A stretch of 64,000 nt of DNA, from the NCBI GenBank assembly GCA_036258175.1, contig DATAEE010000263.1, forward strand, positions 1,489-65,488, in the 5' to 3' direction. The notes below the pieces were generated by a model that worked only from the letters and a program-made list of their open reading frames with translations, did not search any database and had not been told where the DNA came from. Both the position numbers and the translations under genes were made by a program. Of the stretch, positions 383 to 33,045 are shown in pieces (the stretch's first letter is position 1; every line of letters begins with the position of its first letter). Origin of the DNA: Vicinamibacterales bacterium. Lineage in GTDB: Bacteria > Acidobacteriota > Vicinamibacteria > Vicinamibacterales > 2-12-FULL-66-21.

Positions 383-493
383 CAGCCGGGGGGCGGGAAG
401 CCCACAAACTGTAGCACAGACCCAGCTAGCCCCCGAAGTTGAAAAGTCGTGCAATCCCACGGCTGGGGTAACGGGTCGCCGGCCTTACCAAGC

Positions 494-509
494 TGGCGAG
501 CGCGTTGCA
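494..509 (+). promoter_or_regulatory. Candidate sigma-54 (-24/-12) promoter for the PEP-CTERM gene
   Basis: TGGCGAGCGCGTTGCA has GG and GC doublets with the 10-nt separation of the TGGCAC-N5-TTGCW consensus. It lies 74 nt upstream of ATG 583, and a GGGGAGGG Shine-Dalgarno sits just before the ATG. Confidence 0.35.
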
Positions 510-582
510 GTGAGGCCGTCGGCTGCGTCTCTCGTAGGCTTTCGCACCCGCGAGTTGCCCAACGAGGGTAGGGGAGGGACGA

Positions 583-1278: not shown

Positions 1279-1280
1279 CA

Positions 1281-12281: not shown

Positions 12282-13490
12282 ATGGAGTACCGCTGCAGGC
12301 TGGGCACGCCATCCGGAGAAGTGACTGAAGGCGTGTACGTAGCCGACAGTGAATCCCGGCTGAGGCGCGAGCTCGAAGACAAGGGCCTCTACGTCCTTGC
12401 CATCCGGCGCGCCGGCGGCCTCGGGCTGGCGGGCGTCGCGGTACCTCGCAGGCGGAAGCTCTCGACTCGGGAGTTCCTCGTGTTCAACCAGGAGCTCGCG
12501 ACGCTTCTCAAGGCCGGCATGCCGCTCGTACAGTCGCTCGACATTTTGCGTCAGCGGCTGCCGAACCCGGTCTTCAAGGCGGTGCTGGACGACATCCACG
12601 AACGCGTCCGCGCGGGTTCATCGCTCTCGGAGGCCTTCGAAGCCCAAGGCGAGCTCTTTCCTGGCGTCTACACGGCGACGCTGTTCGCCGGCGAGAAGAG
12701 CGGCAACCTCGAGCAGGTTCTCCGCCGCTACGTCGCGTACACGAAGGTGATTTCGGCGGTCCGGCGGCGAACGATCTCGGCGCTCGTTTACCCAATGATC
12801 CTTCTGGCGCTCTCGATCGTTGTCGTCGCGATCATCATGCTGAAGGTCGTTCCGGAGTTCGCGAGCTTCTACGATCAGTTCGGCCGGGAGCTGCCCGCGT
12901 CGACGCGTGTGATCGTTGCTATCTCGACGTTCATCTCGAACTACGTGTTCTTCATCCTGGCGGCGATTGTATCGGCGGGCCTCGGGTTCTGGTACTGGCT
13001 GCAGCGCCCCGGCGAACGAGTCCGAATCGATCACATCGTGCTCAGCCTCCCGCTGGCCGGTCCCACGGTGCGGAAGTACTCGACGTCGCAGGCGGCGCGG
13101 ACTCTCGCCACCCTTCTCGGCGGCGGTATCCCACTCGTGAACGCGCTCGACATCAGCGCGCGTTCGATCGGCAATCAGTTCATGGCGTGCGAACTGCACA
13201 CCGCGGCGCAGCAGGTTCGGGAAGGGCGCGCGCTCGCGCAGGCGTTGAACGAGCGCGGGCACTTTCCCGACGTCGCGATCAAGATGATTGAAGTTGGTGA
13301 GTCCACCGGCGCGCTGCAGGACATGTTGAACAGCCTCGCCGACTTCTACGACGAGGAAATTGAAACCGGGTTGGGCCGGTTCGTGACGCTCGTGGAGCCG
13401 ATACTGCTGGTGACGATGGGGCTCGTGATAGCCGCGTTGCTGCTGGCGCTCTACATGCCGCTCTTCCAACTCTCTTCGGTGTTGCGGTGA
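12282..13490 (+). CDS. Type II secretion system F family platform protein (GspF/PilC)
   Basis: Two T2SSF repeats: FNQELATLLKAGMPLVQSLDIL... and AARTLATLLGGGIPLVNALDI...EVGESTGALQDML. Three TM segments. Confidence 0.9.
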   Translation: MEYRCRLGTPSGEVTEGVYVADSESRLRRELEDKGLYVLAIRRAGGLGLAGVAVPRRRKLSTREFLVFNQELATLLKAGMPLVQSLDILRQRLPNPVFKAVLDDIHERVRAGSSLSEAFEAQGELFPGVYTATLFAGEKSGNLEQVLRRYVAYTKVISAVRRRTISALVYPMILLALSIVVVAIIMLKVVPEFASFYDQFGRELPASTRVIVAISTFISNYVFFILAAIVSAGLGFWYWLQRPGERVRIDHIVLSLPLAGPTVRKYSTSQAARTLATLLGGGIPLVNALDISARSIGNQFMACELHTAAQQVREGRALAQALNERGHFPDVAIKMIEVGESTGALQDMLNSLADFYDEEIETGLGRFVTLVEPILLVTMGLVIAALLLALYMPLFQLSSVLR

Positions 13491-15133
13491 TGGAACCCAG
13501 GACAGTCAGCGATCTTTACACGACGGAAGAACCGTCCGCAGCCGCGCGGGCGGCCGAAGTCGTCCAGGCCCGAAAGCTGGCCGAGCGCTACCGGCTCGAA
13601 TTCGTCGACATGGGGCGGTTCAGCATCGATCACGAGCTGTTCCGCCAGATTCCGGCCGACCTGATGTTGCGCTACGGCTTCGTGCCGTATCGGCGCGAGG
13701 GTGGAGCGCTCGTAATCGTGGTGTCGGACCCGACCGATCTGCCGATGATCGACGAACTCGGCGCGCTGCTGGCAACACCGATCCGCGTCTGCGTCGGCAC
13801 ACCGTCCGCCATCCAGGCGATTCTGAAGAAAAGCGAAAGCTCGCAGCGCGTCCTCGATCAGGCGACCGAGAGCTTCCAGATGCAGATCCTCCGCGACGAG
13901 GACGTCGCCGCGGCCGAAGACAGCCTGACGGTCGATCGCATCACGAGCGACGCGAGTCCGGTCATCCGCCTCGTGGACTCGACAATCTACACAGCAATCC
14001 AGCGGCGGGCAAGCGACATCCATATCGAGACGGGCGACGATGCGGTGCATGTGAAGTACCGGATCGACGGCGTGCTGCAGCCGGCGATGCGGCCGATCGA
14101 CCGGCGCTTCCACAGCACGATCATCTCCCGCGTCAAGGTCATGGCCGAGCTCGATATCGCGGAGAAGCGCGTGCCACAGGACGGCCGCTTCAAGCTGCGG
14201 CTGCCCGAGAAGACGATCGACTTTCGCGTGTCCATCATGCCGAGCGTTCACGGCGAGGACGCCGTCATCCGCATCCTGGACAAGGAATCGATCAGCGAGC
14301 AGTTCAAGGAGCTCCGGCTGGATATCCTCGGCTTCCCGGAGTCCGAGCTGAAGCGGTTCCGAAAGTACATCGCCGAGCCGTACGGGATGGTCCTCGTCAC
14401 AGGTCCCACGGGCAGCGGCAAGACGACAACGCTTTACGCGGCGCTGTCCGAGATCAAGTCGCCCGAAGACAAGATCGTGACGATCGAGGACCCCGTCGAG
14501 TACCAACTCCGCGGCATCACGCAGATCCCGATCAACGAGAAAAAAGGACTGACGTTCGCGCGCGGCCTGCGGTCGATCCTCCGGCACGATCCGGACAAGA
14601 TCATGGTCGGCGAGATCCGCGACCCCGAGACTGCGCAGATTGCGATCCAGTCCGCGTTGACGGGGCATCTCGTTTTTACGACGGTCCACGCGAACAACGT
14701 TGTCGACGTGCTCGGCCGGTTCCTGAACATGGGTGTGGAGCCGTATCAGTTTGTTTCGGCGCTCAACTGCGTGCTGGCGCAGCGCCTGGTGCGGAATATC
14801 TGCATCCACTGCAAGCGGCCAGCGTCGATCACGCGCGAGATGCTGGAAGAGTCGGCGCTCGACCCGGCGCTCCTCCGGTCGCAGGTGTTTTACGAAGGCG
14901 CGGGCTGCATCGAGTGCGCCGGAACCGGCTACAAAGGCCGGACCGCGATCTGCGAGCTCCTCGACCTCTCCGATCCCATCCGCGAGATGATTCTCGAGCG
15001 GCGTCCCACGTCGGAGATCAAGAAGGCGGCGCGGGAAGAAGGCATGCAGTTCCTGCGCGAATCGGCGGTCGAAAAAGTCGTCGGCGGCACGACGACGTTG
15101 CGAGAGATCAACAAGGTGACGTTCGTCGAGTGA
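13487..15133 (+). CDS. GspE/PilB family secretion ATPase
   Basis: T2SSE_N domain (FVPYRREGGALVIVVSDPTD), Walker A VTGPTGSGKTTT, Asp box, Walker B IMVGEIRD, tetracysteine CIHC...CIECAGTGYKGR. GTGATG overlaps the GspF stop (ATG at 13490). Confidence 0.9.
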   Translation: MMEPRTVSDLYTTEEPSAAARAAEVVQARKLAERYRLEFVDMGRFSIDHELFRQIPADLMLRYGFVPYRREGGALVIVVSDPTDLPMIDELGALLATPIRVCVGTPSAIQAILKKSESSQRVLDQATESFQMQILRDEDVAAAEDSLTVDRITSDASPVIRLVDSTIYTAIQRRASDIHIETGDDAVHVKYRIDGVLQPAMRPIDRRFHSTIISRVKVMAELDIAEKRVPQDGRFKLRLPEKTIDFRVSIMPSVHGEDAVIRILDKESISEQFKELRLDILGFPESELKRFRKYIAEPYGMVLVTGPTGSGKTTTLYAALSEIKSPEDKIVTIEDPVEYQLRGITQIPINEKKGLTFARGLRSILRHDPDKIMVGEIRDPETAQIAIQSALTGHLVFTTVHANNVVDVLGRFLNMGVEPYQFVSALNCVLAQRLVRNICIHCKRPASITREMLEESALDPALLRSQVFYEGAGCIECAGTGYKGRTAICELLDLSDPIREMILERRPTSEIKKAAREEGMQFLRESAVEKVVGGTTTLREINKVTFVE

Positions 15134-16083
15134 TGGAGTTTCAACGCGCTCTCAGCTCGCCGGGGCCGCCGCATGCCGTCGAAATTGCCGCACGCCGCGT
15201 GACGGTCGTCGCGATCCGCCATGAAAGCGGAAAGGCGGTCGTGGCCGCGTCGGCGACCGAACCGCTTGCTCCAGGCGTCGTGACCCCGGGCCTGGCGCAC
15301 CCCAATATTCGCGACACCGAAGCAGTCGTCAGCGCGCTGTCCCGGGCGCTCGAGCGGGCGGGAATCCGGCCAAAGCGCGTCGGCCTCGTTATTCCGGATG
15401 CGGCCGCGCGTGTGTCCATCGTCCGGTTCGACACGGTTCCGCCGCGCGCCCGTGATCTCGATGAGCTCGTTCGATGGCAGGTCGGGAAAGGCGCTCCGTT
15501 CCGGATCGAGGAAGGCCAGCTGTCATATGTTCCGGGCGCCGCGGTTGGGACCGGTGGCCGGGAGTTCGTGTCGGTGCTCGTCCGGCGTGACGTCATCGAA
15601 GAGTACGAAGGTGTCTGCGCGCGCGCCGGAATGCACGCCGGCCTCGTGGACATCGCGAGCTTTAACGTGGTGAACGCCGTGCTCGCGGCGGCGCAAGAGA
15701 AGGACGGGGCGGATTGGCTGCTCGTGCATGTCACGCCTGAGGACACGACGCTGGCGATCGTGCGATCGGGAGACCTGATTTTCTTCCGCAATCGTCCGGT
15801 TGGCGAAGGGTCTCTTGAGGACCTGGTGCATCAGACGGCGATGTACTACGAGGACCGCCTTGGCGGGCGGGGCCTCAGCCGCGTGATCGTCGCCGGCGGT
15901 TCCGACGGCGGCGACGCGCTTCGGCGGGCCCTCGAGGATCGGCTACGCGTCAGCGTGGAGAGTATCGATCCGCGCCACGCCGCCGGCCTACGGGATCGCG
16001 TGTCGGCGAGTTCGGACCTCCTTGACGCCATTGCAGCTCCGGTGGGGCTGATCGTGAGGGATACCGCGGGTGCTGCGAACTAA
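15133..16083 (+). CDS. pilM: PilM-like actin-fold pilus/pseudopilus assembly protein
   Basis: ATG at 15133 overlaps the GspE TGA by 1 nt (TGATG). Translation MEFQRALSSPGPPHAVEIAARRVTVVAI...RVGLVIPDAAARVSIVRFD...LVDIASFNVVNAV is the typical PilM pattern. The upstream part of the 14914 ORF overlaps gspE and is rejected. Confidence 0.8.
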   Translation: MEFQRALSSPGPPHAVEIAARRVTVVAIRHESGKAVVAASATEPLAPGVVTPGLAHPNIRDTEAVVSALSRALERAGIRPKRVGLVIPDAAARVSIVRFDTVPPRARDLDELVRWQVGKGAPFRIEEGQLSYVPGAAVGTGGREFVSVLVRRDVIEEYEGVCARAGMHAGLVDIASFNVVNAVLAAAQEKDGADWLLVHVTPEDTTLAIVRSGDLIFFRNRPVGEGSLEDLVHQTAMYYEDRLGGRGLSRVIVAGGSDGGDALRRALEDRLRVSVESIDPRHAAGLRDRVSASSDLLDAIAAPVGLIVRDTAGAAN

Positions 16084-16639
16084 CGTCTCCACGCGGCCGT
16101 TCTATAACGAGCGCGCGGTGCATGTCGGCATCGGGGTCGTCGCAGGGCTCGTCCTGCTCGCGACGCTCATCAACGTGGTGTGGGTCATCTCGTTATCCGC
16201 GCGCAATACGTTGCTCGGGACCCAGATTCGTCAGGACGAGCAGACGGCGGCCAAGCTGGATGCCGAGGCCAAGAGCCTGCGGTCGCGCATCAATCAGCAG
16301 GAGCTCGCCGTCGTCGTGACCGCGGCGCGTGAGGCGAACGCGCTCATCGACCAGCGGACGTTCTCCTGGACGGAATTCTTCAATCTGATCGAGGCGACGC
16401 TTCCCGCGGACGTCATGCTCATGTCGGTATCGCCGACAGTCACGGACGGTGAGACCGAAGTGCGGATGAAGGTCCTGGCGCGGCGGGCGGAGGACATCGA
16501 CGCGTTCATGGAATCGCTCGAGGGAACGAAGGCGTTCGCCGGCCTGTTGCCGATCAGCGAACAGTTGAACGAAGCCGGGCTCCACGATGTAGAACTCGTC
16601 GGACGCTACGTGGCGCCCGTGACGGAGGCTGCACGATGA
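16070..16639 (+). CDS. pilN: PilN-like bitopic assembly protein
   Basis: MLRTNVSTRPFYNERAV, then one TM (VGIGVVAGLVLLATLINVVWV), a coiled coil and a ferredoxin-like C-domain. 14-nt overlap with pilM. Confidence 0.7.
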   Translation: MLRTNVSTRPFYNERAVHVGIGVVAGLVLLATLINVVWVISLSARNTLLGTQIRQDEQTAAKLDAEAKSLRSRINQQELAVVVTAAREANALIDQRTFSWTEFFNLIEATLPADVMLMSVSPTVTDGETEVRMKVLARRAEDIDAFMESLEGTKAFAGLLPISEQLNEAGLHDVELVGRYVAPVTEAAR

Positions 16640-17214
16640 CCTCCTTCAAGCGCATCTTCGACGAGAAGCGCCGGCTGATCGTGCCGCTGCTCATCGCGAT
16701 CGCTGCCAACGTGGCGCTTTATGCGTTCGCGGTCTACCCTCTCGAACGGCGCGTGGCTACCGCCGGTACGCGGGCGGAGGCCGCGGCGGCCGCGCGCCGT
16801 GCGGCCGAGAGCAACCATCGCGACGCGCAGGCGACCGTTACTGGTATGGACCGGGCGGACGAAGAGCTCAAACGGTTCTACAACAACATCCTTCCAACCG
16901 ATCAAACGGGAGCGCGACGGATCACGTACGTGCGCCTCGCCCGCATGGCGCGCGACGCCGGTCTGCGGACGGAGCGCGGCACAATCGAGTCGTCCGCGAT
17001 CGACGACAGCCGGTTGTCACGTCTGCGCATGACGATGACCCTCGAGGGACAGTACGACGAGATTCGCCGGTTCATCCACCGGATCGAAACCGCCCCGGAG
17101 TTCACCGTCATAGAGGACGTTGCCGTTCAGCGCGGCGCCGACGAGGAGGGATCGACGCTCGTCCTGGAGCTTGCCGTCACGACGTACTACTGGACGAATG
17201 GCCATGGCAACTGA
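16636..17214 (+). CDS. pilO: PilO/GspM-like bitopic assembly protein
   Basis: One TM (LIVPLLIAIAANVALYAFAVY), a coiled coil, then LRMTMTLEGQYDEIRRFIHRIE...LVLELAVTTYYW. ATGA overlap with pilN. Confidence 0.6.
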   Translation: MTSFKRIFDEKRRLIVPLLIAIAANVALYAFAVYPLERRVATAGTRAEAAAAARRAAESNHRDAQATVTGMDRADEELKRFYNNILPTDQTGARRITYVRLARMARDAGLRTERGTIESSAIDDSRLSRLRMTMTLEGQYDEIRRFIHRIETAPEFTVIEDVAVQRGADEEGSTLVLELAVTTYYWTNGHGN

Positions 17215-17752
17215 TCGGCCGCGGCGGCAATTCATCGTCCTGGGCGTGCTGCTCGTCGGGCTGGCGGGGCTGATCGTGTACAACCTGGACGGGAGTCAAC
17301 AGGCCGCCGCTCCTGCGACGACGTCCAATGCTCCAAGGCCTCAGCGCGGGCGTCAGGCGCCGGCCACTACCGCGGAGGCGCTGGACCTACGAATCGAATC
17401 GCTGAGTCAGGCCAAGCCGGCGCCGGAAGAATCCGATCGCAATCCATTCCGATTCCGTCCGCCGCCTCCGCCGCCCGCGTCCAAGTCGCTCCCCCCCGTT
17501 GAGGCCCCGGTCGTAGACCCGAACCCGCCGGAAGCGCCGCCCCCAACAATCCCCCTGAAGTTCATCGGGGTGTTCGAGGCGGCGCGGGTGGGGAAGGTTG
17601 CCGCGCTCAAGGATGAACGTGGCGTGTACCACGCGCGCGAAGGGGAAATCGTCGTCGGCCAGTATCGTGTCGTGCGGATCGGCGTGGAGTCGATCGTCTT
17701 GGAGTACGCTGACGGGCGTGGACGTCAGACCATCCGCCTGTCGGGCCAGTAG
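17198..17752 (+). CDS. PilP/GspC-HR-like protein with Pro-rich linker
   Basis: MAMATDRPRRQFIVLGVLLVGLAGLIVY (TM), a Pro-rich stretch, then C-terminal LKFIGVFEAARVGKVAALKDERGVYHAREGEIVVGQYRVVRIGVESIVLEY (PilP-type beta-sandwich pattern). Confidence 0.5.
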   Translation: MAMATDRPRRQFIVLGVLLVGLAGLIVYNLDGSQQAAAPATTSNAPRPQRGRQAPATTAEALDLRIESLSQAKPAPEESDRNPFRFRPPPPPPASKSLPPVEAPVVDPNPPEAPPPTIPLKFIGVFEAARVGKVAALKDERGVYHAREGEIVVGQYRVVRIGVESIVLEYADGRGRQTIRLSGQ

Positions 17753-17798
17753 CGCCTCCGTGACCCGGGCCGGTACCCCGGGGAGCAGAAAAGGAACG

Positions 17799-20291
17799 AT
17801 GACGCGCAGAGTTCTCTTGATCCTTGTTCTGGCCAGCACAGCCGTTGGGTGCGCCGCGGGGCGCGCGTTCCGGCAGGGTGACGAAGCGGCGCGTCTCGGC
17901 GACTGGGACACGGCTGTCATCCACTACCGCCGTGCGGTCCAGGAGGCGCCCGATCGGCCGGATTACAAGATCCAGCTCGAACGGGCGATGCAGAATGCCG
18001 CTCTGACGCATCTCGCTGCCGCCTACGACCTCGAAGCGAAGGATCAGCTTGATCTGGCGCTGAAGGAATACCGGAAGGCTCTGGAATACGACTTGAGCAA
18101 TCGCATCGCCTCCGCGAAGGCGGCGGAGCTCGAACGGAAGATTCGCGACCGGGTCGAGGCGGCGCGGCCGAAACCCAAGATCGACGAATTGCGCGAAAAG
18201 GCGCGTCAGCTCGGGCAGGAGCCAATCCTGAACCCGGCGCGGCGCGAGCCGCTAAAGGTCGTGTTCAACAACGCCAGCGTCCGCGACATCCTGAACTCGA
18301 TGGGGAGCACCGCGGGTATCAACGTCATCTACGATCAGCAGGCGGAGTCAGCGGTCAACCGCGGGTTCACCGTCAATCTCGAGGGCGTGACGCTCGAAGA
18401 GGCGCTCAACCAGGTCCTCACCGCGAACGGTCTTTTCTACAAAGTCGTCAATCCGCGCACTATCATCGTCATTCCGGATATCCCCGCGAAGCGCGCGCAG
18501 TACGAAGAGCTGGTCATCAAGACCTTCTTCCTCTCTCACGCAGACGCGACCGAGCTGACGACGATGATCAATCAGGTCGCGCGGCTGCCCGGGAGCCAGC
18601 CGGCGGTGATGGCGAACAAGACCGCCAACACGATCACGATCCGGACGACCGCGGCGCTCGCCGCGGTCATCGAGCGGGTTATTCGGGCCAACGACAAGCC
18701 GCGAGCTGAGATCCTGCTCGACGTCGAGATTCTCGAAGTCAACCGGACGCGCCTGAAGGAGTACGGGCTCAATCTGAGCAACTATTCGGTGAACCTGTTC
18801 TTCTCGCCCGAGCAGCCGCCGTCCACTGCGGGCGGCGTGACATCGACTCCACCGTTCAACCTCAATACGATCACGCAGGGCATCAGCACCGCCGACTTCT
18901 ACCTCGCGGTGCCGACTGCAGTCGTCCGGTTTCTCGAGACCGACTCGAACACGCGGATTCTCGCCAAGCCGCAGCTGCGCGGCGCCGAAGGGCAGAAGCT
19001 CACGCTGAACCTAGGTCAACAGGTGCCCGTGCTCTCGACGGTCTTCGGGGCCGCGGCAGCTGGCGGATTTGCGACGATTCCGCAGTCCTCGTTCAATTAC
19101 CGCGACGTCGGCGTCAACCTCGAGATGGAGCCCCGCGTCTCTTACGAGGGCGAGATCATCCTGACGCTCGGCATCGAAGTCAGCGCGCTCGGACCGAACA
19201 TCGAAGTCGCGGGCCAAAACGTCCCGTCGTTCCAGACGCGGCGCGTGTCGACGCGACTCCGGCTGCGCGAAGGGGAGTCGAACCTGCTCGCCGGACTGAT
19301 CCAGCAGAACGAGCGCAAATCGATCAGCGGTTTCCCGGGGCTGATTCGCGTCCCGGTCTTCAAACAGCTCTTCTCGGGCAACCGGAACGAGTCCGAGGAA
19401 AACGACATCGTCATGCTCATCACGCCGCACATCGTGCGGACGCACGAGCTGACCGCGGAAGACCTTGCGCCGATCTTCATCGGCACGCAAGGAAACATCG
19501 GTTTGGGCGGGCCGCCGCCACTTATCGCTCCGCAGCCGATCCCAGAAGAACCGGAATCGAGGATCGATCCCGGCCCAGGCGTCACGCAGCAGCCTGGCAC
19601 GCGTCTGGGCGTGCCGGTCGGGCCGGAGGCCGGGGCAACGCCCGGTGGTGTGCCGCAAACCTCGAGGCCGGGCGTTCCGCCGGGTACGGCACCCACGCCG
19701 GGGCAGCTGCCTCCTGTGGCTCCGGTGGCTCCGCCTGGGGCCGCGCCTGCGACGCCCGCCGTTCCGCCGCCGGGCACCGAACAGCCGCCACCGGTTGCGC
19801 CGCCGGTTCCCTCACGCGAGCGGCCGCCACCGACCGCTCCTGCGACTCCTGAAGCTCCAGCCCCGGCGCCGTCGGCGGCGGCGCAGGTGATCGTGACGCC
19901 TCCGGGCACCGAATTCCGCGTAGCTGGCGGACCGTACACGGTGCCGATTTCGATTAACGGCGTGGCGCGAGCCTCGACGGCGACGATTACGCTGACCTTC
20001 AATTCGTCGACGGTTCGCGCGCGAAACGCCCAGGAGGGCAGTTTCATGCGGCAGGGTGGCGTCGCGACGAGCTTCACGCCACGCGTAGACGCCGTCTCCG
20101 GGCGAGTCGATATCGTGATCACGCGCCTGAGCGATGCGACGGGCGCATCAGGGTCTGGTCTTCTGGCCGCAGTGATCTTCGACGCGATCGCGCCGGGCAG
20201 CACCACGTTTACCGTCAGCGGTTTGGCGACCACGCCGGAAGGCGGGACGATTCCGCTGCAGTTCAGCCCGGTCACGGTGACCATACGATGA
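17799..20291 (+). CDS. Secretin (GspD/PilQ family) with N-terminal lipobox + TPR module and C-terminal Pro-rich linker + cohesin-like domain
   Basis: AAGGAA precedes ATG 17799. MTRRVLLILVLASTAVGCAAG, then TPR (GDWDTAVIHYRRAVQEAPDRPDY...). N0/N1 domains (VRDILNSMGSTAGINVIYD; KTFFLSHADATELTTMI). Secretin core (ILAKPQLRGAEGQKLTLNLGQQVPV...GFPGLIRVPVFKQLFS...IVMLITPHIV). About 125 aa of P/A-rich linker, then VIVTPPGTEFRVAGGPYTVPISINGVARASTATITLTFNSSTV... Confidence 0.85.
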   Translation: MTRRVLLILVLASTAVGCAAGRAFRQGDEAARLGDWDTAVIHYRRAVQEAPDRPDYKIQLERAMQNAALTHLAAAYDLEAKDQLDLALKEYRKALEYDLSNRIASAKAAELERKIRDRVEAARPKPKIDELREKARQLGQEPILNPARREPLKVVFNNASVRDILNSMGSTAGINVIYDQQAESAVNRGFTVNLEGVTLEEALNQVLTANGLFYKVVNPRTIIVIPDIPAKRAQYEELVIKTFFLSHADATELTTMINQVARLPGSQPAVMANKTANTITIRTTAALAAVIERVIRANDKPRAEILLDVEILEVNRTRLKEYGLNLSNYSVNLFFSPEQPPSTAGGVTSTPPFNLNTITQGISTADFYLAVPTAVVRFLETDSNTRILAKPQLRGAEGQKLTLNLGQQVPVLSTVFGAAAAGGFATIPQSSFNYRDVGVNLEMEPRVSYEGEIILTLGIEVSALGPNIEVAGQNVPSFQTRRVSTRLRLREGESNLLAGLIQQNERKSISGFPGLIRVPVFKQLFSGNRNESEENDIVMLITPHIVRTHELTAEDLAPIFIGTQGNIGLGGPPPLIAPQPIPEEPESRIDPGPGVTQQPGTRLGVPVGPEAGATPGGVPQTSRPGVPPGTAPTPGQLPPVAPVAPPGAAPATPAVPPPGTEQPPPVAPPVPSRERPPPTAPATPEAPAPAPSAAAQVIVTPPGTEFRVAGGPYTVPISINGVARASTATITLTFNSSTVRARNAQEGSFMRQGGVATSFTPRVDAVSGRVDIVITRLSDATGASGSGLLAAVIFDAIAPGSTTFTVSGLATTPEGGTIPLQFSPVTVTIR

Positions 20292-20881
20292 TCCGCCAGG
20301 TGCCTCGTGCTTCGTGGTTCGTGCCTCGGGCAGTGCCTCGTGCGCCGTTCCTCGTCCGAGGTCCGAGGTCCGAGGTACGGCCCGAGACCCGAGACCCGAG
20401 GCCCGAGGCACGTACTGCGTTCGAGCACGGTTATACCTTCATTGAGCTGCTGGTCGTCGCGACGATCCTGTTGATCCTCGCGTCGGCGGCAATGCCGCTG
20501 ACGCGCGTGACGGTTCAGCGCACGAAAGAGGCGGAGCTGCGGCGCGTCCTGCGCGAGATGCGCACGGCGATCGACAAGTACAAGGACGCCGTCGATACCG
20601 GGCTCATCTCGAATCTCGACGTGCGCGCTGGCAGCGAAGGATATCCGCCAGACCTCGAGACGCTCGTGGAAGGTGTCACGGTTGCGAACGATGCATCGGG
20701 GCGCAAGCTCAAGTTCCTCCGTCGGATTCCGATCGACCCGTTGACGGGCGAGGCGGAGTGGGGGTTACGCGCGTATCAGGATCGGCCCGACTCCATGTCC
20801 TGGGGCGGGTCGAACGTGTACGACGTCTATTCGCTTGCCGCCGGAGTCGGGTTGGACGGAACGAAATACAGGGATTGGTAG
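20288..20881 (+). CDS. GspG-like pseudopilin / prepilin with an unusually long Arg/Pro-rich leader
   Basis: ATGA overlap with the secretin stop. Class III signal ...AFEHG|YTFIELLVVATILLILASAAMPL (Gly-1, Glu+5). GspG-type body AELRRVLREMRTAIDKYKD...YPPDLETLVEG...IPIDPLTGE...YDVYSLAAGVGLDGTKYRDW. The only in-frame starts (ATG 20288; GTG 20300, 20321, 20333) give 33-48-aa leaders. Confidence 0.75.
   Translation: MIRQVPRASWFVPRAVPRAPFLVRGPRSEVRPETRDPRPEARTAFEHGYTFIELLVVATILLILASAAMPLTRVTVQRTKEAELRRVLREMRTAIDKYKDAVDTGLISNLDVRAGSEGYPPDLETLVEGVTVANDASGRKLKFLRRIPIDPLTGEAEWGLRAYQDRPDSMSWGGSNVYDVYSLAAGVGLDGTKYRDW
20300..20411. repeat. Run of 16 consecutive heptamers forming an imperfect inverted repeat
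   Basis: GTGCCTC GTGCTTC GTGGTTC GTGCCTC GGGCAGT GCCTCGT GCGCCGT TCCTCGT | CCGAGGT x3, ACGGCCC, GAGACCC x2, GAGGCCC, GAGGCAC. The outer 8 bp, GTGCCTCG and CGAGGCAC, are perfectly complementary. CCTCG units in the left arm pair with CGAGG units in the right arm. Confidence 0.7.
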
Positions 20882-20887
20882 CTGGTT

Positions 20888-21280
20888 ATGAAGCGCAGCA
20901 ACTCGCGCGGATGGACGCTTATCGAGCTCCTGATCGTGATCTCACTGATCTCGATCCTCGCGACCATCGGGCTGGCGAGCTATCGCAACTCGGTGACCGC
21001 CTCCAAAGAAGCGATTCTGAAGACGGATCTGTTCCGTATGCGCGACGCGATCGATCAGTATTACGCGGACAAAGGGGAGTACCCGGCATCGCTCGACGCG
21101 CTCGTCAGTGAAGGCTACTTGCGAAAGATCCCCGACGATCCGTTCACGCGTGCCGCGGATTGGCAGACACTTCCGGCCGAGCCGAACCCGAGCAAGCCCA
21201 CGGCCGAGCCTGGCGTCTACGATGTGAAGAGCAGCTCCTCAGACACCGCGCTCGACGGTTCCCGCTACGCTGACTGGTAA
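20888..21280 (+). CDS. GspG-like pseudopilin / prepilin (canonical short leader)
   Basis: MKRSNSRG|WTLIELLIVISLISILATIGLASY (Gly-1, Glu+5). KEAILKTDLFRMRDAIDQYYADKGEYPASLDALVSEGYLRKIPDDPF...DGSRYADW. Confidence 0.85.
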   Translation: MKRSNSRGWTLIELLIVISLISILATIGLASYRNSVTASKEAILKTDLFRMRDAIDQYYADKGEYPASLDALVSEGYLRKIPDDPFTRAADWQTLPAEPNPSKPTAEPGVYDVKSSSSDTALDGSRYADW

Positions 21281-21314: not shown

Positions 21315-22348
21315 TCACGGGCACGTCCCGCTCGTCGGCCGCACTGTTACGGTGCGGGTTGCTACAGCCTCTTCCCCCGTCGTCGTAGTCACACGCACCC
21401 GCGCGGTTCTCGTACCCGTGTTCTCGTACGTATGGACGATGCGGTCCGAGACGGTTGAGGGCGGATCGAACGTGCCGTCGCCTTCGAAATCCCAATCATG
21501 CGTGAGCGGCCGGCCTGTGACATTCGACGACACGGCCCTGAACGTTATCGGCGCGCCGAGCAGCACGCACTCTGGCGTCGCGGTCAACGTGACCGTGAAT
21601 GGCACGGCGGGGAGAACGGTCACAACGGCGCTTGCCGTTCCGGTCACGCCTGCCGTCACTGAATGCGCGCGCACGGAGACAGTCTTCACCCCTGCGGTGT
21701 CGAACACAACACTGTGCGCGTTCGGCCTCGAGAGGAGTTCGAAATTCCCATCGCCGTCTTCATCCCAGTCGAACGACACGATTTGACCGGCGCCGTTCGC
21801 GGCGTGGCAGTCGCCGTGAAGACGAACGTCGTCTCGGTCGTTCCGGTTATGGGCGCGGCATCGAGCGTGACCTCGACGGAAGGCGCTGGCCGTGCTGGAG
21901 GAGGCACTGTTGGAGCGGGGACCGGCGTGGGCGGCGGCGGCGCTGGCGGCACAGGGTGAGGCACACCGCCAGGCGGCACATCCACGCTGACGGGTCGCTC
22001 GACGATGAGGCCTGGCGCCGTCGCCCGGATGATTGTGGACGTCGACAGAAACAGCCGCTGCGCGAACTCACCGTCTTCGTCGAGTTCCACAGGGTTCGGC
22101 GTCTCGCGCCCGTCGTTCACCAGCACAAGCCGCACGGCATCCGGCGCCACACGCATGCCGACATCGGTCGTTGCGCGCAGTTCGATATTGACTGGGTCGG
22201 CAGCGGGCAATCGATCCGGCGTTGCGTTCAGCGTGAGTGAGCGAACCGGGCCGAACTGATCAGTCGGCGGCGTCGGCCCATCGTCGCATCCCAGGCTGAT
22301 GAGGACCGAGAGGAGGCCGACGCCGCCGACGACTCTGGTTATCGCCAT
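21315..22348 (-). pseudogene. PKD-domain (lipo)protein interrupted by a 1-nt frameshift near 21797-21803 (true pseudogene or assembly error)
   Basis: ORF 21686..22348 (MAITRVVGGVGLLSVLISLGCDD..., Pro-rich linker, ...TTFVFTATATP) loses sense exactly where ORF 21315..21779, read in the -1 frame, continues the same PKD domain (ANGAGQIVSFDWDEDGDGNFE...). A second PKD domain follows (THDWDFEGDGTFD...IVHTYENTGTRTARVRV). Total length 1034 nt, not a multiple of 3. Confidence 0.6.
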
Positions 22349-22429: not shown

Positions 22430-23743
22430 CTACCGGATGCTGCCCGTCGCCGTTACGTTGACACTCGCCTGACCCGTCCCTGTGGGCCCGGCCGCTTGGG
22501 TTACAACGACAGTAATCGTAAATGTGCCAATGGTCGTGTAGACCTTCGATGTCTGGTTCCCCGTAGTGGTAGCCGTTGTCCCGTCGCCGAAGTTCCAATC
22601 GTAGCGCACGATCGTCGAAGTCGCCCCGCTGACGATTGCGGTCAGGTTGACCTGTTGATTGATCGCCGGAACCGCGTCGGAGACATTAACAACCACGCCT
22701 GGCGGTTGCCCCGGCAGGATCGTAATGTCGGTCGCTACGGTCTCCTGATCGCCTGTCGACTGCGTCGCGGTCGCGCTGACTTCGTACGTGCCTGCGACCC
22801 GATACGTGTGTTGAATCGTGGTCGAACCGCTGATCGCTCCGAGCGACCGAGCCTCGCCGTCCCCGAAATCAATGCGGACATTTGTGATGTTCGCCGTCGC
22901 GGCGACCGCGACGGTGAACGTCGCCGGCAGCCCTTCTGACGGCGGGGTCGCTGGCCCGGTAAGTGTCAGCCCGCTGCGCGGGCGCAAGCTGACCGTGATC
23001 TTACCTTCTGCAGCGCCGGATCGCGCCACGACATCCGCACTCGCATTCGCCTGCAGTGTCGCGACGGCGATTCCATTGTTGTCCGTATTGGCAGTCGATG
23101 GCGTGATGTTGCCCGCCGTCGTGCTGAACGTTACAGGCGCGCCGGAGACCACCGAGCCTTCTGCGTCCTCGACTCGCGCGGAAATCTGACTCGTACCTCC
23201 GACGGCGGGAAGCTGCGCCGGACTCGCTGAAAGAATGACTCTCGATGACGCGGCAGAACCAACCCTGATCGCGAGGCTCGCGGATCGGGCGCCGCCGGAG
23301 AACGCAACCACGGTCGCGGTTCCAGATTGACCAGTCGACGTGAGCCGAACGCTCGCCTGCCCGTTGTGTGTGCGCGCCTCCGCAGGCTCCAGACGTCCCA
23401 GCGTCGTCGTAAACGTGATGACAGTGCCGTTGTGGACTGGGGTGCCGGTGCCGGGCGTGCCAGGCGTTGGCGTCGGAGTCGTCGGAGTCGTCGGTGTGCC
23501 GGGCGTAGGAGGCGTCGGAGTCGGAGTTGTCGGTGTGCTCGGAGCGGCTCCAGCCTCGATGGCAATCGCCGTTATATCCACAGAGCCGTTCAGCGGCAGA
23601 ACCATGCTCGTCGAGAACAACGAGATGACGGTGCCTTGCGGCGCCAAAAGGGGCAGCTTGTCGCAGGAGCCGCTCGCGATTGCTCCGAGGGCTGCGACGA
23701 CGGCAAGCGCCAGACGGCTGCGAAGGCGTGCGTGTGCTACCAT
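22430..23743 (-). CDS. Exported Big_1 (invasin-like Ig) + 2x PKD domain protein with Pro/Thr linker
   Basis: MVAHARLRSRLALAVVAALGAIASGSC signal. PTPTPPTPGTPTTPTTPTPTPGTPGTGTP linker. Big_1-like segments (NGQASVRLTSTGQSGTATVVAFSG; NNGIAVATLQANAS). PKD motifs (VRIDFGDGEA...HTYRVAGTYEV; VRYDWNFGDGTT...KVYTTIGTFTITV). Alternative ATG at 23770. Confidence 0.75.
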   Translation of the reverse strand: MVAHARLRSRLALAVVAALGAIASGSCDKLPLLAPQGTVISLFSTSMVLPLNGSVDITAIAIEAGAAPSTPTTPTPTPPTPGTPTTPTTPTPTPGTPGTGTPVHNGTVITFTTTLGRLEPAEARTHNGQASVRLTSTGQSGTATVVAFSGGARSASLAIRVGSAASSRVILSASPAQLPAVGGTSQISARVEDAEGSVVSGAPVTFSTTAGNITPSTANTDNNGIAVATLQANASADVVARSGAAEGKITVSLRPRSGLTLTGPATPPSEGLPATFTVAVAATANITNVRIDFGDGEARSLGAISGSTTIQHTYRVAGTYEVSATATQSTGDQETVATDITILPGQPPGVVVNVSDAVPAINQQVNLTAIVSGATSTIVRYDWNFGDGTTATTTGNQTSKVYTTIGTFTITVVVTQAAGPTGTGQASVNVTATGSIR

Positions 23744-23768
23744 GGATACTCTTAAGATATTACGGTCC

Positions 23769-24557
23769 ATGTACTTACGAGGTCAAGCACGGAGAGCGGC
23801 GGGTTCCAGGACGCGCAGGAATCCGGCCGGCTACGCGATGGCGGCCTTGCTGGTCGCGATCGCCGTGCTGACCATCATGTTGTCGGTCGCGATGCCCGTT
23901 TGGCGCCATGAAATGCAGCGAGAACGGGAAGCCGAGCTCGTATTCCGAGGCGAGCAGTACGTCCGCGCGATTGACCTGTTTCAGCGCAAGTACGCCGGCG
24001 CTTTGCCGCCGACAATCGATCTCCTTGTCACCGAGCGCTTTCTTCGGAAGAAGTACAAGGACCCGATGACTGAGGACGGTGAGTTCCGGGTCATCGCCGC
24101 CGGTGCGCAACAACAGCCCGGATCGCCGCAGCCGGGCGGACCCGATGCTCCCCCGGGCCAGCAGCCTCAGCTGCGCGCGACGGTTCAACCGCCCACGTCG
24201 GCGTTCGGACAGAACCGACCTGGTGCGCAACCGTCGGTCGGCGCGGGCATCATTGGCGTCGCGAGCAAGAGCAAGGAAAAGTCGATTCGGCTCTACAAGG
24301 GCCGGAGCAAATACGACGAGTGGCAATTCATCTTTGCCAGCATCGGCGCGCGTCCGGGCGCGCCGGGCCAACAGCCGAATCGGCCTGGACAGCAAAACCT
24401 GCCTGGCATACGTCCCGGTTTTCCGCGTCCCGGTCAAGGACAGCCCGGCATGCCGGGACAACCCGGACCGGGAGATCCGCTGCGGCGTCGTCCAGGCATG
24501 AATCCGCCGGTCGTCAAGCCCGGAACCTCGGGCACGGGTCAACGTCCTCCCGGCTAG
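23769..24557 (+). CDS. Atypical GspG-like pseudopilin lacking Glu+5, with Gly/Pro/Gln-rich insert and tail
   Basis: MYLRGQARRAAGSRTRRNPAG|YAMAALLVAIAVLTIMLSVAMPVW, then REAELVFRGEQYVRAIDLFQRKYAGALPPTIDLLVTERFLRKKYKDPMT and YKGRSKYDEWQF (parallels the DGxxYxDW ends of the other two). The C-terminal ~70 aa is PGQ-rich. Alternative ATG at 23742. Confidence 0.55.
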   Translation: MYLRGQARRAAGSRTRRNPAGYAMAALLVAIAVLTIMLSVAMPVWRHEMQREREAELVFRGEQYVRAIDLFQRKYAGALPPTIDLLVTERFLRKKYKDPMTEDGEFRVIAAGAQQQPGSPQPGGPDAPPGQQPQLRATVQPPTSAFGQNRPGAQPSVGAGIIGVASKSKEKSIRLYKGRSKYDEWQFIFASIGARPGAPGQQPNRPGQQNLPGIRPGFPRPGQGQPGMPGQPGPGDPLRRRPGMNPPVVKPGTSGTGQRPPG

Positions 24558-26469: not shown

Positions 26470-26470
26470 G

Positions 26471-27523
26471 TCACCTCAGCGCATCTACGATTGCGTCGTG
26501 AATCAGGGGCCGCAGCCGCTTCAAGTTGTCGTTGTCACGGGTCGGATGAACGCGATTGGTCAGCAGCGCCACATAGAGATCCTGATCCGGGTCGACCCAT
26601 AGTGACGTGCCCGTGAATCCGGTATGGCCGATGGCAGTCGCCGACAGCCGCCGCCCGCAGGATGAGGTCGGCAGCATGGTATCCCATCCGAGGGCACGCG
26701 AGCTTCCAGGGATCTCGTCCCGTTTACGGGCGAACTCCATCAGCGTTGCGCGCCGCGCGAGCGGGGAATCACCGCTCAACGTCTGGAGGACGAGCCTGCC
26801 GAACGCGCCGACGGCGCCGACCGTGCCGAAGAGTCCCGCGTGGCCCGCGGCCCCGCCGAGCGCCCAGGTATTCTCGTCGTGCGCTTCCGCGACAAGGAGA
26901 CGCCCGCGCCACCGATCTACTTCGGTTGGCGCAACTCGCGGCCGCCAGGCTTTCGGTGGACGAAATGCGAGTGGCTCCGAACCGACGAGACCCTGGATTG
27001 CTTCGAACTGATTGGGGAGCGGCGCTCCACCGAGATCCTCGAGGAGAAAGCCGAGCAGCATGAACCCGAGATCGCTGTAGATCGACTGGGACCGCGGCGG
27101 ATATTCGAGAGCGAGCCGGCAGATCGCGGGCTCGAACTCCGCTCGCCCGGTATGGTCGTTGAAGAACGGAAGATACCCGGTCAGGCCGCTGCAGTGCGAA
27201 AGCAGGTCACGAACGGTGACCATGTCACGATCGACGCCCCGCCACGAGTCGAACCGCGCAGCGATCGGCTCGTCGAGATCGAGGCCTCTCCGGTCCACTG
27301 CTTGCATGATGAGCGTCGCGGTGGCGATGACCTTGGTCAGAGACGCCAGATCGAAAATCGTCGACGTCTCGGTCTTCGCGGCGCCAACGTCGTAAGTCAG
27401 CGTCCCGAACACTTCGCGCCAGAGCACGGCATCACGACGGCCGACTTCGACGGAAGCGGCCGGGTAGGCGCGATCGCGAATGCCTCCGGCGATGAGCGCG
27501 GCGGCCGTGTCGAACGTCGTCAT
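26471..27523 (-). CDS. Serine hydrolase, beta-lactamase/transpeptidase-like fold
   Basis: SxxK motif in IFDLASLTKVIATATL, YSDLGF (Y-x-N-like), HTGFTGTSLW (KTG-like box). ATGA overlap with the upstream symporter stop. Confidence 0.8.
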   Translation of the reverse strand: MTTFDTAAALIAGGIRDRAYPAASVEVGRRDAVLWREVFGTLTYDVGAAKTETSTIFDLASLTKVIATATLIMQAVDRRGLDLDEPIAARFDSWRGVDRDMVTVRDLLSHCSGLTGYLPFFNDHTGRAEFEPAICRLALEYPPRSQSIYSDLGFMLLGFLLEDLGGAPLPNQFEAIQGLVGSEPLAFRPPKAWRPRVAPTEVDRWRGRLLVAEAHDENTWALGGAAGHAGLFGTVGAVGAFGRLVLQTLSGDSPLARRATLMEFARKRDEIPGSSRALGWDTMLPTSSCGRRLSATAIGHTGFTGTSLWVDPDQDLYVALLTNRVHPTRDNDNLKRLRPLIHDAIVDALR

Positions 27524-28941: not shown

Positions 28942-28949
28942 CTAGTCGA

Positions 28950-30257: not shown

Positions 30258-30365
30258 AAAGTCCGTAAATTTAACAGCTTGCGCGCCATGTGTCAACACG
30301 GCACACGCTCGACGCGCCGCGCCGTTTCGAGTACGCTCACGCGCGGTGAGAGACAGTCCCACGTC

Positions 30366-32068: not shown

Positions 32069-32069
32069 G

Positions 32070-33014: not shown

Positions 33015-33045
33015 CGCCGGGCCGAGTACGTTACTCTGCGTATCC

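What the first reader, a model, noticed from the sequence alone, without database searches (positions are those of the whole stretch)
17799..20291. Secretin with built-in lipobox + TPR (pilotin-like) N-terminus and a C-terminal cohesin-like domain on a ~125-aa proline-rich tether
The 830-aa secretin has five parts:
- It starts with a lipoprotein-type signal (LASTAVGC).
- About 110 aa of TPR follow (GDWDTAVIHYRRAVQEAPDRPDY..., LDLALKEYRKALEYD).
- Then come normal N0/N1 domains and the secretin core.
- After the core is a P/A-rich linker (about nt 19500-19880).
- It ends in a ~135-aa beta-rich domain (about nt 19884-20288) whose pattern (FRVAGGPYTVPISINGVARASTATITLTFNSSTV...GSGLLAAVIFDAIAPGSTTFTV) looks like a type-I cohesin fold.

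Separate TPR lipoproteins act as secretin pilotins (for example Tgl), and self-piloting liposecretins are known. Fusing both to the channel and adding a surface-tethered cohesin-like module suggests a secretin that also docks partners at the cell surface. I found no dockerin-like partner in this window.
Basis: partly seen in the sequence, partly recalled or inferred. Interest (0 to 1): 0.7.

Follow-up and report, generated by a model that had tools for sequence, protein, structure and literature searches.

The report
Lipidated TPR secretin with tethered cohesin
This single, intact gene encodes the outer-membrane channel of a type II secretion-like machine in soil Acidobacteria, and it carries a built-in lipid anchor with a small TPR domain at the front and a genuine cohesin (protein-docking) domain on a long proline-rich tether at the back; the combination is conserved across a whole bacterial class but I found no paper on it and its docking partner is unknown.

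Summary
ORF 17799-20291 (+) encodes 830 aa with these parts:
- a lipobox (Cys18);
- a helical TPR module of about 100 aa;
- N0/STN, N1 and the secretin core;
- a linker of about 124 aa with 33% Pro;
- a C-terminal domain that AlphaFold models with pLDDT 94.7.

All 50 best PDB matches to that C-terminal domain are cohesins (TM about 0.8). The gene lies in a T2SS-like operon: GspF, GspE, PilM, PilN, PilO, a GspC-like gene, the secretin, then two pseudopilins.

The architecture is not a fusion artefact. It is kept in 47 of 50 full-length genome copies and in 13 of 13 divergent representatives. At least 284 species genomes carry the domain, and the best 80 are all Vicinamibacterales/Acidobacteriota. 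The cohesin is as conserved as the channel.

The TPR is generic and short, with no specific likeness to PilF, PilW or TadD. Solved secretins put their C-terminus where periplasmic pilotins bind, so the tethered cohesins more likely hang in the periplasm than on the cell surface. No dockerin was found in the window or in 82 related loci. I found no paper that links a secretin with a cohesin.

Verdict: a new variant of a known kind, of moderate to good interest, with the partner and the location still open.

The parts
17799..17852 (+). Lipoprotein signal peptide with lipobox (residues 1-18, acylated Cys18 predicted)
   Evidence: Sequence MTRRVLLILVLASTAVGC. The Cys is kept in 47/50 genomic homologues and in 13/13 divergent representatives.
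17853..18164 (+). TPR-like helical module (residues 19-122)
   Evidence: Sub-threshold Pfam TPR hits. The profile hits consensus TPRs in the PDB. AlphaFold gives six helices with pLDDT about 97 over model residues 1-100. Foldseek finds generic 3-TPR domains.
18165..18248 (+). Charged, partly helical connector (residues 123-150) between the TPR module and N0
   Evidence: pLDDT falls to 51-84. Composition.
18249..18494 (+). N0 / STN domain (residues 151-232)
   Evidence: Pfam STN 174-226, 30.9 bits against a cut-off of 28.4.
18519..18707 (+). N1 (Secretin_N) domain (residues 241-303)
   Evidence: Pfam PF03958, 28.8 bits against a cut-off of 28.2.
18729..19511 (+). Secretin core (residues 311-571; Pfam match 379-547)
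   Evidence: PF00263, 122.2 bits, E 2.2e-35. Partial matches to GspD, PilQ and MshL.
19512..19883 (+). Pro/Ala/Gly-rich tether (residues 572-695)
   Evidence: 33% Pro. Presence and length are conserved (83-165 aa, median 126) but the sequence is not (41% identity).
19884..20291 (+). C-terminal cohesin domain (residues 696-830) plus stop codon
   Evidence: AlphaFold pLDDT 94.7. Foldseek top 50 are all cohesins. Pfam Cohesin 18.1 bits here and 25-43 bits in homologues. 63% mean identity across 50 species.
12282..17752 (+). Upstream genes of the same operon: GspF (12282-13490), GspE with MshEN domain (13487-15133), PilM (ORF from 14914, ends 16083), PilN (16070-16639), PilO/GspM (16636-17214), GspC/PilP-like (ORF from 17120, ends 17752)
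   Evidence: Pfam and NCBIfam hits. Present in 49-50 of 50 related loci in the same order.
20408..21280 (+). Two GspG-like pseudopilin genes just downstream (first one: start not fixed, ends 20881; second: 20888-21280)
   Evidence: N_methyl, T2SSG and TIGR01710 hits. Present in 50/50 related loci.
22430..23770 (-). Convergent Big_1/PKD lipoprotein, a conserved neighbour (candidate substrate or partner; inference only)
   Evidence: Pfam PKD and Big_1. The translation shows a signal peptide ending in a lipobox-like ...ASGSC. A homologue is in 49/50 related loci, and the gene is called on the opposite strand just after the operon in the four loci whose gene calls I read.

Best explanation
The gene encodes the outer-membrane secretin of a divergent T2SS-like type IV filament machine typical of Vicinamibacteria.

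Shown:
- It is one intact gene.
- All five modules are real and are inherited together.
- The C-terminal module has the cohesin fold and belongs to the cohesin family by profile.

Inferred:
1. The N-terminal Cys is acylated and is sorted to the inner leaflet of the outer membrane. The lipid anchor, helped by the small TPR module, then does the job that a separate pilotin lipoprotein does for most secretins, so the secretin pilots itself as the HxcQ liposecretin does.
2. The chain leaves the beta-barrel on the periplasmic side. Each of the 12-15 protomers therefore carries a tether of about 125 residues, roughly one third proline, with a cohesin at its end. This is the same layout as OmpA: barrel, Pro-rich hinge, periplasmic domain.
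3. The cohesins act as protein-docking heads that can sweep much of the periplasm around the channel. They would bind a partner not yet identified, such as a substrate to be fed into the vestibule, an inner-membrane platform component or an envelope protein.

The partner need not carry a classical dockerin.
For: One gene:
- The ORF is continuous here.
- 50 loci carry a continuous homologous ORF of at least 750 aa. The short-read assemblies whose locus reaches far enough upstream show it as one frame, and frame breaks appear only in MFD MAG contigs that look like long-read assemblies.

The modules are real.

Co-inheritance and constraint:
- 13/13 divergent representatives have the lipobox, the TPR module and a single terminal cohesin.
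- The cohesin shows 63% mean identity, against 68% for the core and 41% for the linker.
- Invariant motifs are GGPYxxP, FMRQGG and GRVDI..R..D..GASGxGL.

Machine context: the T2SS-like operon is conserved in 49-50 of 50 loci.

Topology and piloting, from the literature:
- Pilotins are periplasmic outer-membrane lipoproteins, and some secretins bind them through a C-terminal S-domain (PMC10653833, PMC10499894).
- HxcQ is the known secretin that needs no pilotin, and the cited title calls it a self-piloted liposecretin (PMC12475490, reference 19).
- Secretins are 12-15-mers (PMC12475490).
Against: - Lipidation, membrane sorting and the location of the cohesin were not tested and cannot be tested here.
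- The residue after Cys18 is Ala, which fits outer-membrane sorting only under the E. coli rule. That rule may not hold in Acidobacteria.
- Characterised cohesins, and the closest multi-cohesin relatives (some with T9SS sorting tails), are extracellular. This argues for a surface location.
- No partner was found, so 'docking' is inferred from the fold alone.
- The TPR module shows no specific similarity to known pilotins.
Confidence: 0.5

Rival explanations
1. One reading: the tether carries the cohesin to the cell surface, where it docks secreted partners. The secretin would then double as a cellulosome-like anchoring scaffoldin.
For: - Every structural neighbour is an extracellular cohesin.
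- The nearest sequence relatives outside secretins are 3-7-copy cohesin proteins, some with a T9SS C-terminal sorting domain, so they are extracellular.
- From my own knowledge, not checked here: Pro/Thr-rich linkers are typical of surface scaffoldins.
- A conserved neighbouring Big_1/PKD lipoprotein could be a surface-retained substrate.
Against: - Secretin C-termini are where periplasmic pilotins bind (PMC10499894, PMC10653833), and no route for the tail across the outer membrane is known.
- There is a single cohesin per chain.
- No dockerin was found in the window, in 82 related loci or in about 45 window ORFs scanned with Pfam.
Confidence: 0.15
2. Internal clasp: the C-terminal cohesin, or its invariant ...V-x-V-R-COOH end, binds the N-terminal TPR module of the same or a neighbouring protomer. 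This would replace the S-domain/pilotin pair of other secretins and drive or stabilise oligomer assembly.
For: - The TPR module and the cohesin always occur together (13/13; 47/50).
- The TPR pilotin TadD binds the last four residues of its secretin RcpA in its groove (PMC10499894).
- The nearest TPR folds are domains that bind C-terminal peptides, such as Hop, SGT and RPAP3.
- The last residue, Arg, is invariant in 30/30 sequences.
Against: - The Foldseek matches are weak (TM about 0.35).
- The last strand is modelled as part of the cohesin sandwich with high confidence, so it is not a free peptide.
- A tether of 83-165 residues is not needed to reach a TPR anchored at the same membrane face.
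- Co-occurrence within a single clade cannot separate function from shared descent.
Confidence: 0.15
3. The cohesin-fold domain is not a protein-docking head. It is a beta-sandwich that binds peptidoglycan or a polysaccharide, or serves as a spacer or ring. It would anchor the channel in the wall, as AMIN domains do for PilQ, or handle an exopolymer.
For: - This secretin has no AMIN domain and no other wall-binding domain.
- T2SS secretins have been tied to slime secretion in myxobacteria and cyanobacteria (PMC12475490).
- A PEP-CTERM / EpsI / TPR cluster lies about 15 kb upstream.
- The absence of any dockerin fits a non-dockerin ligand.
Against: - The top 50 fold matches are all cohesins and none is a carbohydrate-binding module.
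- The profile links the domain to bona fide PF00963 repeats.
- The invariant charged loop residues (R, Q, R, D, R, D) do not point clearly to either kind of ligand.
Confidence: 0.15
4. The ORF is an assembly or annotation artefact that joins a secretin gene to a separate cohesin gene.
For: Some databases list 130-200-aa 'stand-alone' cohesin proteins on long contigs (L001, L002).
Against: - Those loci have the secretin itself broken across several reading frames, with the cohesin piece directly after it.
- 50 related loci carry one continuous ORF of at least 750 aa, and the short-read assemblies with enough upstream sequence show stop-to-stop ORFs of 821-917 aa.
- The identical protein occurs on 5 contigs.
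Confidence: 0.01

Closest known systems
HxcQ liposecretin of Pseudomonas aeruginosa (self-piloted T2SS secretin)
   Same: A secretin whose own N-terminus carries a lipoprotein signal, and no separate pilotin gene is seen in the operon.
   Different: From my own knowledge, not checked here: HxcQ has no TPR module and no C-terminal cohesin. Lipidation and self-piloting are not shown for this protein.
TPR lipoprotein pilotins: PilF / PilW / Tgl (T4aP) and TadD (Tad)
   Same: A predicted outer-membrane lipoprotein with TPR repeats that is physically associated with a secretin.
   Different: Those are separate proteins with six TPRs forming a superhelix (PMC10653833). Here about two TPR hairpins plus extra helices are fused to the secretin, and none of these pilotins appears among the sequence-profile or fold matches shown.
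Non-cellulosomal cohesins (Archaeoglobus fulgidus 2XDH; Clostridium perfringens 2JH2, 2W1N)
   Same: The same fold, and the best structural matches (E about 1e-9, TM 0.72-0.80). The same Pfam family at the profile level.
   Different: About 18% identity. Those occur in secreted or surface proteins, and from my own knowledge (not checked here) they have known dockerin partners. Here the domain ends a secretin and no dockerin was found.
GspD S-domain / pilotin docking site
   Same: An extra element after the secretin core at the C-terminus, a position that other systems use for protein-protein contact on the periplasmic face (PMC10499894).
   Different: S-domains are short helical or coil segments. 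Here there is a tether of about 124 aa plus a folded 135-aa beta-sandwich.
OmpA (barrel, Pro-rich hinge, periplasmic domain) and TonB (Pro-rich periplasmic spacer)
   Same: A membrane-embedded part followed by a proline-rich spacer and a globular head that works in the periplasm. This is a textbook analogy, not tested here.
   Different: The head domains and partners differ. The tether here is much longer than the OmpA hinge.
Myxococcus TraC and the N-terminus of T9SS PorE
   Same: The N-terminal 130 residues resemble their lipoprotein signal plus TPR start (TraC E 2e-10, PorE E 4e-4). TraC is an outer-membrane lipoprotein with three TPRs (PMC8546572).
   Different: The similarity is confined to the N-terminal module. 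The rest of those proteins is unrelated, and both scores lie far below the family cut-offs.

Membership tests
Secretin superfamily (PF00263) | C-terminal secretin domain above the Pfam gathering score | tested here: met
   122.2 bits against a cut-off of 27.5, residues 379-547.
Secretin superfamily (PF00263) | Periplasmic N0 (STN) and N1 (Secretin_N) domains before the core | tested here: met
   STN 30.9 against 28.4; Secretin_N 28.8 against 28.2.
T2SS GspD (TIGR02517 equivalog) | Full-length match above the NCBIfam cut-off | tested here: not met
   144.5 bits against a cut-off of 351.35, and only residues 260-550 align.
T4aP PilQ (TIGR02515) | Full-length match above the cut-off; AMIN domains in many members | tested here: not met
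   112.7 bits against 284.35. No AMIN hit.
T2SS-like operon context | Neighbouring GspE/F ATPase and platform, alignment proteins and pseudopilins | tested here: met
   GspF, GspE, PilM, PilN, GspM/PilO, GspC_delta-like and two GspG-like genes, all below the equivalog cut-offs. Conserved in 49-50 of 50 loci.
Liposecretin (HxcQ type) | N-terminal lipobox with an invariant Cys on the secretin itself | tested here: met
   LASTAVGC, Cys18. Kept in 47/50 and 13/13.
Liposecretin (HxcQ type) | Acylation and pilotin-independent outer-membrane targeting | not testable with these tools
   Needs labelling, globomycin treatment and mutant work.
TPR pilotins (PilF/PilW/Tgl/TadD) | Six-TPR superhelix that superimposes on PilF/PilW | tested here: not met
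   Six helices in all, about two TPR hairpins. No pilotin among the top 50 Foldseek hits or the 60 PDB profile hits shown.
TPR pilotins (PilF/PilW/Tgl/TadD) | Required for secretin multimerisation or targeting | not testable with these tools
   This is a genetic and biochemical property.
Cohesin (PF00963) | Sequence match above the Pfam gathering score | tested here: inconclusive
   This protein scores 18.1 bits against 24.1. Homologous secretins score 25-43 bits. The family profile retrieves multi-cohesin proteins with PF00963 at E 1e-31 to 1e-55.
Cohesin (PF00963) | Cohesin beta-sandwich fold | tested here: met
   pLDDT 94.7. The 50 best PDB matches are all cohesins, TM 0.67-0.84.
Cohesin (PF00963) | Binds a dockerin | not testable with these tools
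   No dockerin in the window or the related loci. The rest of the genome was not available.
Cellulosome-type scaffoldin system | Several cohesins on a surface-anchored scaffoldin plus dockerin-bearing enzymes | tested here: not met
   One cohesin per chain. No dockerin was found. The only glycoside-hydrolase-like neighbour (GHL10) shows no dockerin hit.

The most novel reading that the evidence does not exclude
The secretin carries its own partner-capturing antenna. Each channel would have 12-15 cohesins on tethers that could reach roughly 25-40 nm if fully extended (my estimate from the linker length, not a tool result). These would bind a cognate tag on specific cargo or envelope proteins; the conserved neighbouring Big_1/PKD lipoprotein is one candidate. 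Binding would either feed cargo into the channel or hold it at the cell surface after export. That would make this a secretion-coupled, scaffoldin-like docking system in Gram-negative soil bacteria, using a cohesin partner that is not a classical dockerin.
Probability: 0.15. Interest if true: 0.8.

Novelty: new variant of a known kind. Interest (0 to 1): 0.55.

Why it matters
How secretins reach the outer membrane, and how T2SS-type machines recognise their cargo, are still open questions. The models in use come almost entirely from Proteobacteria.

In this abundant soil class, Vicinamibacteria, the channel protein itself has three additions that are inherited together: a lipid anchor, a TPR module and a tethered cohesin. 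If the cohesin recruits cargo or couples the channel to another envelope structure, it would be a new way of organising secretion. It would also be the first role for a cohesin inside a secretion machine.

The protein also gives a clean, testable construct. The domain is small and well folded, and it can be used directly in pull-downs.

Tried and rejected
- **Literature.** Three full-text searches for secretin together with cohesin gave only cellulosome and surface-display papers, or nothing. Peer et al. 2009 on non-cellulosomal cohesins is not held.
- **PDB sequence search with the cohesin profile.** The top hits were designed WD40 repeats, through a repeated match of about 20 residues with no significant single stretch, so I rejected them as spurious. 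Real cohesins appeared only weakly (2xdh, E 0.08).
- **Stand-alone cohesin genes.** Those on long contigs looked like evidence for two genes. tblastn showed the secretin there is broken over several frames, so I rejected that reading.
- **Dockerin hunt.** A regex for paired Ca-binding loops and a small HMM built from dockerin sequences recalled from memory (a weak tool) found nothing in 11,877 ORFs of the window and 82 loci. Pfam scans of about 45 window ORFs gave no PF00404 hit.
- **Taxonomy of divergent representatives.** A cluster look-up returned no organism names.
- **Model coordinates.** These are not exposed, so I could not map the conserved residues onto the cohesin surface or look for domain contacts.
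- **Inverted-repeat finder.** It missed the hairpin after the stop codon.
Full report
**1.

A frame open from 17598 to 20291 contains the ATG at 17799. That ATG is preceded by AAGGA and lies 46 nt after the stop of the upstream gene. It gives an 830-aa product that ends at TGA 20289-20291.

Pfam finds these domains:

| Domain | Residues | Score | Cut-off |
|---|---|---|---|
| Secretin | 379-547 | 122 bits | 27.5 |
| STN / N0 | 174-226 | 30.9 bits | 28.4 |
| Secretin_N / N1 | 241-303 | 28.8 bits | 28.2 |
| TPR_2 | 24-52 | 24.9 bits | 27 (below) |
| Cohesin | 713-815 | 18.1 bits, E 0.0033 | 24.1 (below) |

The N-terminus MTRRVLLILVLASTAVGC is a lipoprotein signal with Cys18. Residues 576-695 are 33% Pro and 16% Ala.

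**2. The C-terminal domain is a real cohesin**

- An alignment of 30 homologous C-terminal domains (A1) shows a strongly constrained domain of about 135 aa. Its invariant motifs are GGPYxxP, FMRQGG and GRVDI..R..D..GASGxGL, and it always ends ...V-x-V-R at the very C-terminus.
- AlphaFold with this alignment gives an all-beta model with pLDDT 94.7 and pTM 0.88.
- Foldseek against the PDB returns cohesins for all 50 top ranks. The best is the non-cellulosomal cohesin of Archaeoglobus fulgidus (2xdh, E 7.5e-10, TM 0.80). It is followed by Clostridium perfringens cohesin-like modules and by type I and type II cellulosomal cohesins, at 9-18% identity. No subtype can be assigned.
- An exhaustive profile search of 1.84 billion cluster representatives found 4248 proteins at E <= 1e-3. 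These include secretin-length proteins with the domain at the very end. They also include 700-1800-aa proteins with 3-7 copies.
- Those multi-copy proteins match Pfam Cohesin at E 1e-31 to 1e-55, and some carry a T9SS sorting tail.
- Several homologous secretins pass the Pfam cohesin cut-off on their own, at 25-43 bits.
- Sequence search of the PDB alone was nearly blind (2xdh at E 0.08; the top hits were spurious WD40 repeats).

**3. The N-terminal module is a small generic TPR on a lipid anchor**

- A profile of residues 18-150 hits designed consensus TPR proteins at E 1e-14 to 1e-40, through two repeat-sized stretches.
- AlphaFold gives six helices. pLDDT is about 97 for the first 100 residues and falls through the connector to N0.
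- Foldseek finds generic three-TPR peptide-binding domains (Hop, SGT, RPAP3) with poor superposition (TM about 0.35). No pilotin appears in the top 50.
- NCBIfam shows only N-terminal likeness to the Myxococcus lipoprotein TraC (E 2e-10) and to PorE. TraC is an outer-membrane lipoprotein with three TPRs and an unrelated C-terminal part (PMC8546572).
- T4aP pilotins have six TPRs (PMC10653833).

'Pilotin-like' is therefore a functional guess, not a shown relationship.

**4. One gene, conserved as a whole**

- The identical protein is in NCBI from a Vicinamibacterales MAG. There it is named only 'secretin and TonB N-terminal domain-containing protein'.
- The 120 best homologues (56-93% identity, about 780-890 aa) nearly all carry TPR hits, and most have a precomputed Cohesin hit.
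- A scan of one genome per GTDB species found 284 genomes with the domain. The best 80 are all Vicinamibacterales/Acidobacteriota.
- In 50 loci with a full-length ORF, 47 keep the lipobox Cys and the following ...GDWDxAV start of the TPR.
- The linker is always present (83-165 aa, median 126, median 32% Pro) but is poorly conserved in sequence, at 41% identity. The cohesin (63%) is as conserved as the TPR (61%), N0 (59%), N1 (59%) and the core (68%).
- All 13 divergent full-length representatives combine a lipobox, the TPR module and a single terminal cohesin. The multi-cohesin proteins have neither lipobox nor TPR module.
- The apparent stand-alone cohesin genes on long contigs follow secretin genes that are broken over several reading frames. 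They look like frameshift artefacts.

**5. Context**

- The gene is eighth in a co-directional run. The order is a predicted lipoprotein of unknown family, an SLT transglycosylase, GspF, GspE with an MshEN domain, PilM, PilN, PilO/GspM and a Pro-rich GspC/PilP-like protein, then the secretin. Two GspG-like pseudopilins follow it.
- All these genes score below the NCBIfam equivalog cut-offs, and the secretin matches GspD and PilQ only partially. It is therefore a divergent T2SS-like type IV filament system.
- The order GspF through the pseudopilins is kept in 49-50 of 50 related loci. So are homologues of a Big_1/PKD lipoprotein (49/50) and of a pilin-like protein with a P/G/Q-rich tail (50/50). 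In the four loci whose gene calls I read, the Big_1/PKD gene lies on the opposite strand just after the operon.
- No dockerin was found. The searches were a regex and a small home-made HMM on 11,877 ORFs from the window and 82 loci, and Pfam scans of about 45 window ORFs.

**6. How it most likely works**

Shown: the module set, its co-inheritance, the fold and the operon.

Inferred, first part: the acylated Cys anchors the N-terminus in the inner leaflet of the outer membrane. With the TPR module it supplies in cis what pilotins supply in trans. Pilotins are periplasmic outer-membrane lipoproteins needed for secretin targeting and multimerisation (PMC10653833). HxcQ is the known secretin that manages without one, being a self-piloted liposecretin (PMC12475490, reference 19).

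Inferred, second part: the C-terminus of the secretin core is where periplasmic pilotins bind, either to an S-domain or, for TadD, to the last four residues of RcpA (PMC10499894). The tether therefore starts on the periplasmic face.

Secretins have 12-15 protomers (PMC12475490). The channel would thus be surrounded by 12-15 cohesins on tethers of about 125 residues, roughly one third proline. My own estimate, not a tool result, is that such tethers could reach most of the periplasm. The layout recalls OmpA and TonB.

By fold and family the cohesins are protein-docking heads. The partner is unknown. Candidates are cargo, the platform proteins or the conserved neighbouring lipoprotein.

I put about 0.5 on this composite picture. 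Confidence that the gene is one functional secretin is near certainty. Confidence in the location and role of the cohesin is much lower.

**7. Rivals**

It needs an unknown route across the outer membrane. Confidence 0.15.
- *Internal TPR-cohesin clasp, standing in for the pilotin/S-domain pair.* This fits the strict co-occurrence and the TadD precedent. The long tether and the structured C-terminal strand argue against it. Confidence 0.15.
- *Wall- or glycan-binding, or a purely structural role for the beta-sandwich.* This fits the lack of AMIN domains and of dockerins. The purely cohesin fold matches argue against it. Confidence 0.15.
- *Fusion artefact.* Refuted.

**8. Novelty and score**

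Automated pipelines already tag these proteins with Secretin and Cohesin domains. The architecture is therefore visible in databases, and it is common in one soil class. I found no paper that discusses a secretin with a cohesin. No solved secretin in the comparisons made here has such a tail.

It is a new variant of a known kind. Interest is 0.55. It would be higher if the cohesin proves to capture cargo or to reach the surface.

Noticed in passing
window 20300-20415 (between the secretin stop and the first pseudopilin): An imperfect hairpin of about 115 nt, built from short tandem CCTCG(T/G) units and their complement. RNA MFE is -79.2 kcal/mol, z = -7.5, and 0 of 200 shuffles fold as well. 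Related loci have different short tandem repeats at the same intergenic spot (for example TCCTTGG in L003, CCAAGGTG in L046, GGGACTx in L004), some with very low folding energies. Its function is unknown; it could be a terminator, attenuator or RNA-stability element between the secretin and pilin genes.
   Followed up: partly
window 1-4827 (+): A PEP-CTERM-type C-terminus (VTPEPGAMLLVGTGLVAIARVFKKRRRSRV*) lies in frame 1, with its PEP motif at 1192 and a stop near 1280. It is followed by an ORF with DUF3485 (which I recall as the exosortase-associated EpsI domain; the ORF is 513 aa, 1232-2773) and a 685-aa multi-TPR protein (2770-4827). Together these look like an exosortase / PEP-CTERM sorting cluster about 15 kb upstream of the secretin.
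   Followed up: partly
window 13487-15133 (+): The GspE/PilB-type ATPase of the operon has an N-terminal MshEN domain (75 bits). From my own knowledge this domain type binds c-di-GMP, so the machine may be under c-di-GMP control.
   Followed up: no
window 22430-23770 (-); also 21315-22348 (-): A Big_1 + PKD lipoprotein with a Pro/Thr-rich linker lies convergent to the operon, and a homologue is present in 49/50 related loci. A second small lipoprotein/PKD-like pair of overlapping ORFs (21315-21779 and 21686-22348) is specific to close relatives (2/50) and may be one frameshifted gene.
   Followed up: partly
window 23799-24557 (+): A protein with a pilin-like hydrophobic N-terminus (GYAMAALLVAIAVLTIMLSVAMP...) and a long P/G/Q-rich low-complexity tail. 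It has no family hit, yet a homologue is present in 50/50 related loci.
   Followed up: partly
window 47292-49631 (-): A 779-aa ORF with two LptF_LptG permease stretches (482 bits). It appears to be a fused LptF-LptG lipopolysaccharide export permease.
   Followed up: no
window 10480-11382 (+): A predicted lipoprotein (...VSAGALAGC...) of about 300 aa with no Pfam or NCBIfam hit, lying just before the SLT gene at the head of the operon. ORFs of similar size with no hit occupy the same place in L083 and L084.
   Followed up: no
window 24664-33128: A cluster that looks like amino-sugar or cell-wall recycling: two sodium:solute symporters, a beta-lactamase-fold protein, a GHL10 glycosyl-hydrolase-like protein, a BadF/BcrA-type ATPase, a glucosamine-6-P isomerase-like protein and a SIS-domain protein. 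The beta-lactamase-fold gene is present in 47/50 related loci.
   Followed up: no
L001, L002, L004, L013, L023 (MFD MAG contigs that look like long-read assemblies): The secretin homologue is split over 2-7 reading-frame segments in these assemblies. This generates spurious short 'cohesin domain' and 'Secretin_N' proteins in protein databases.
   Followed up: yes
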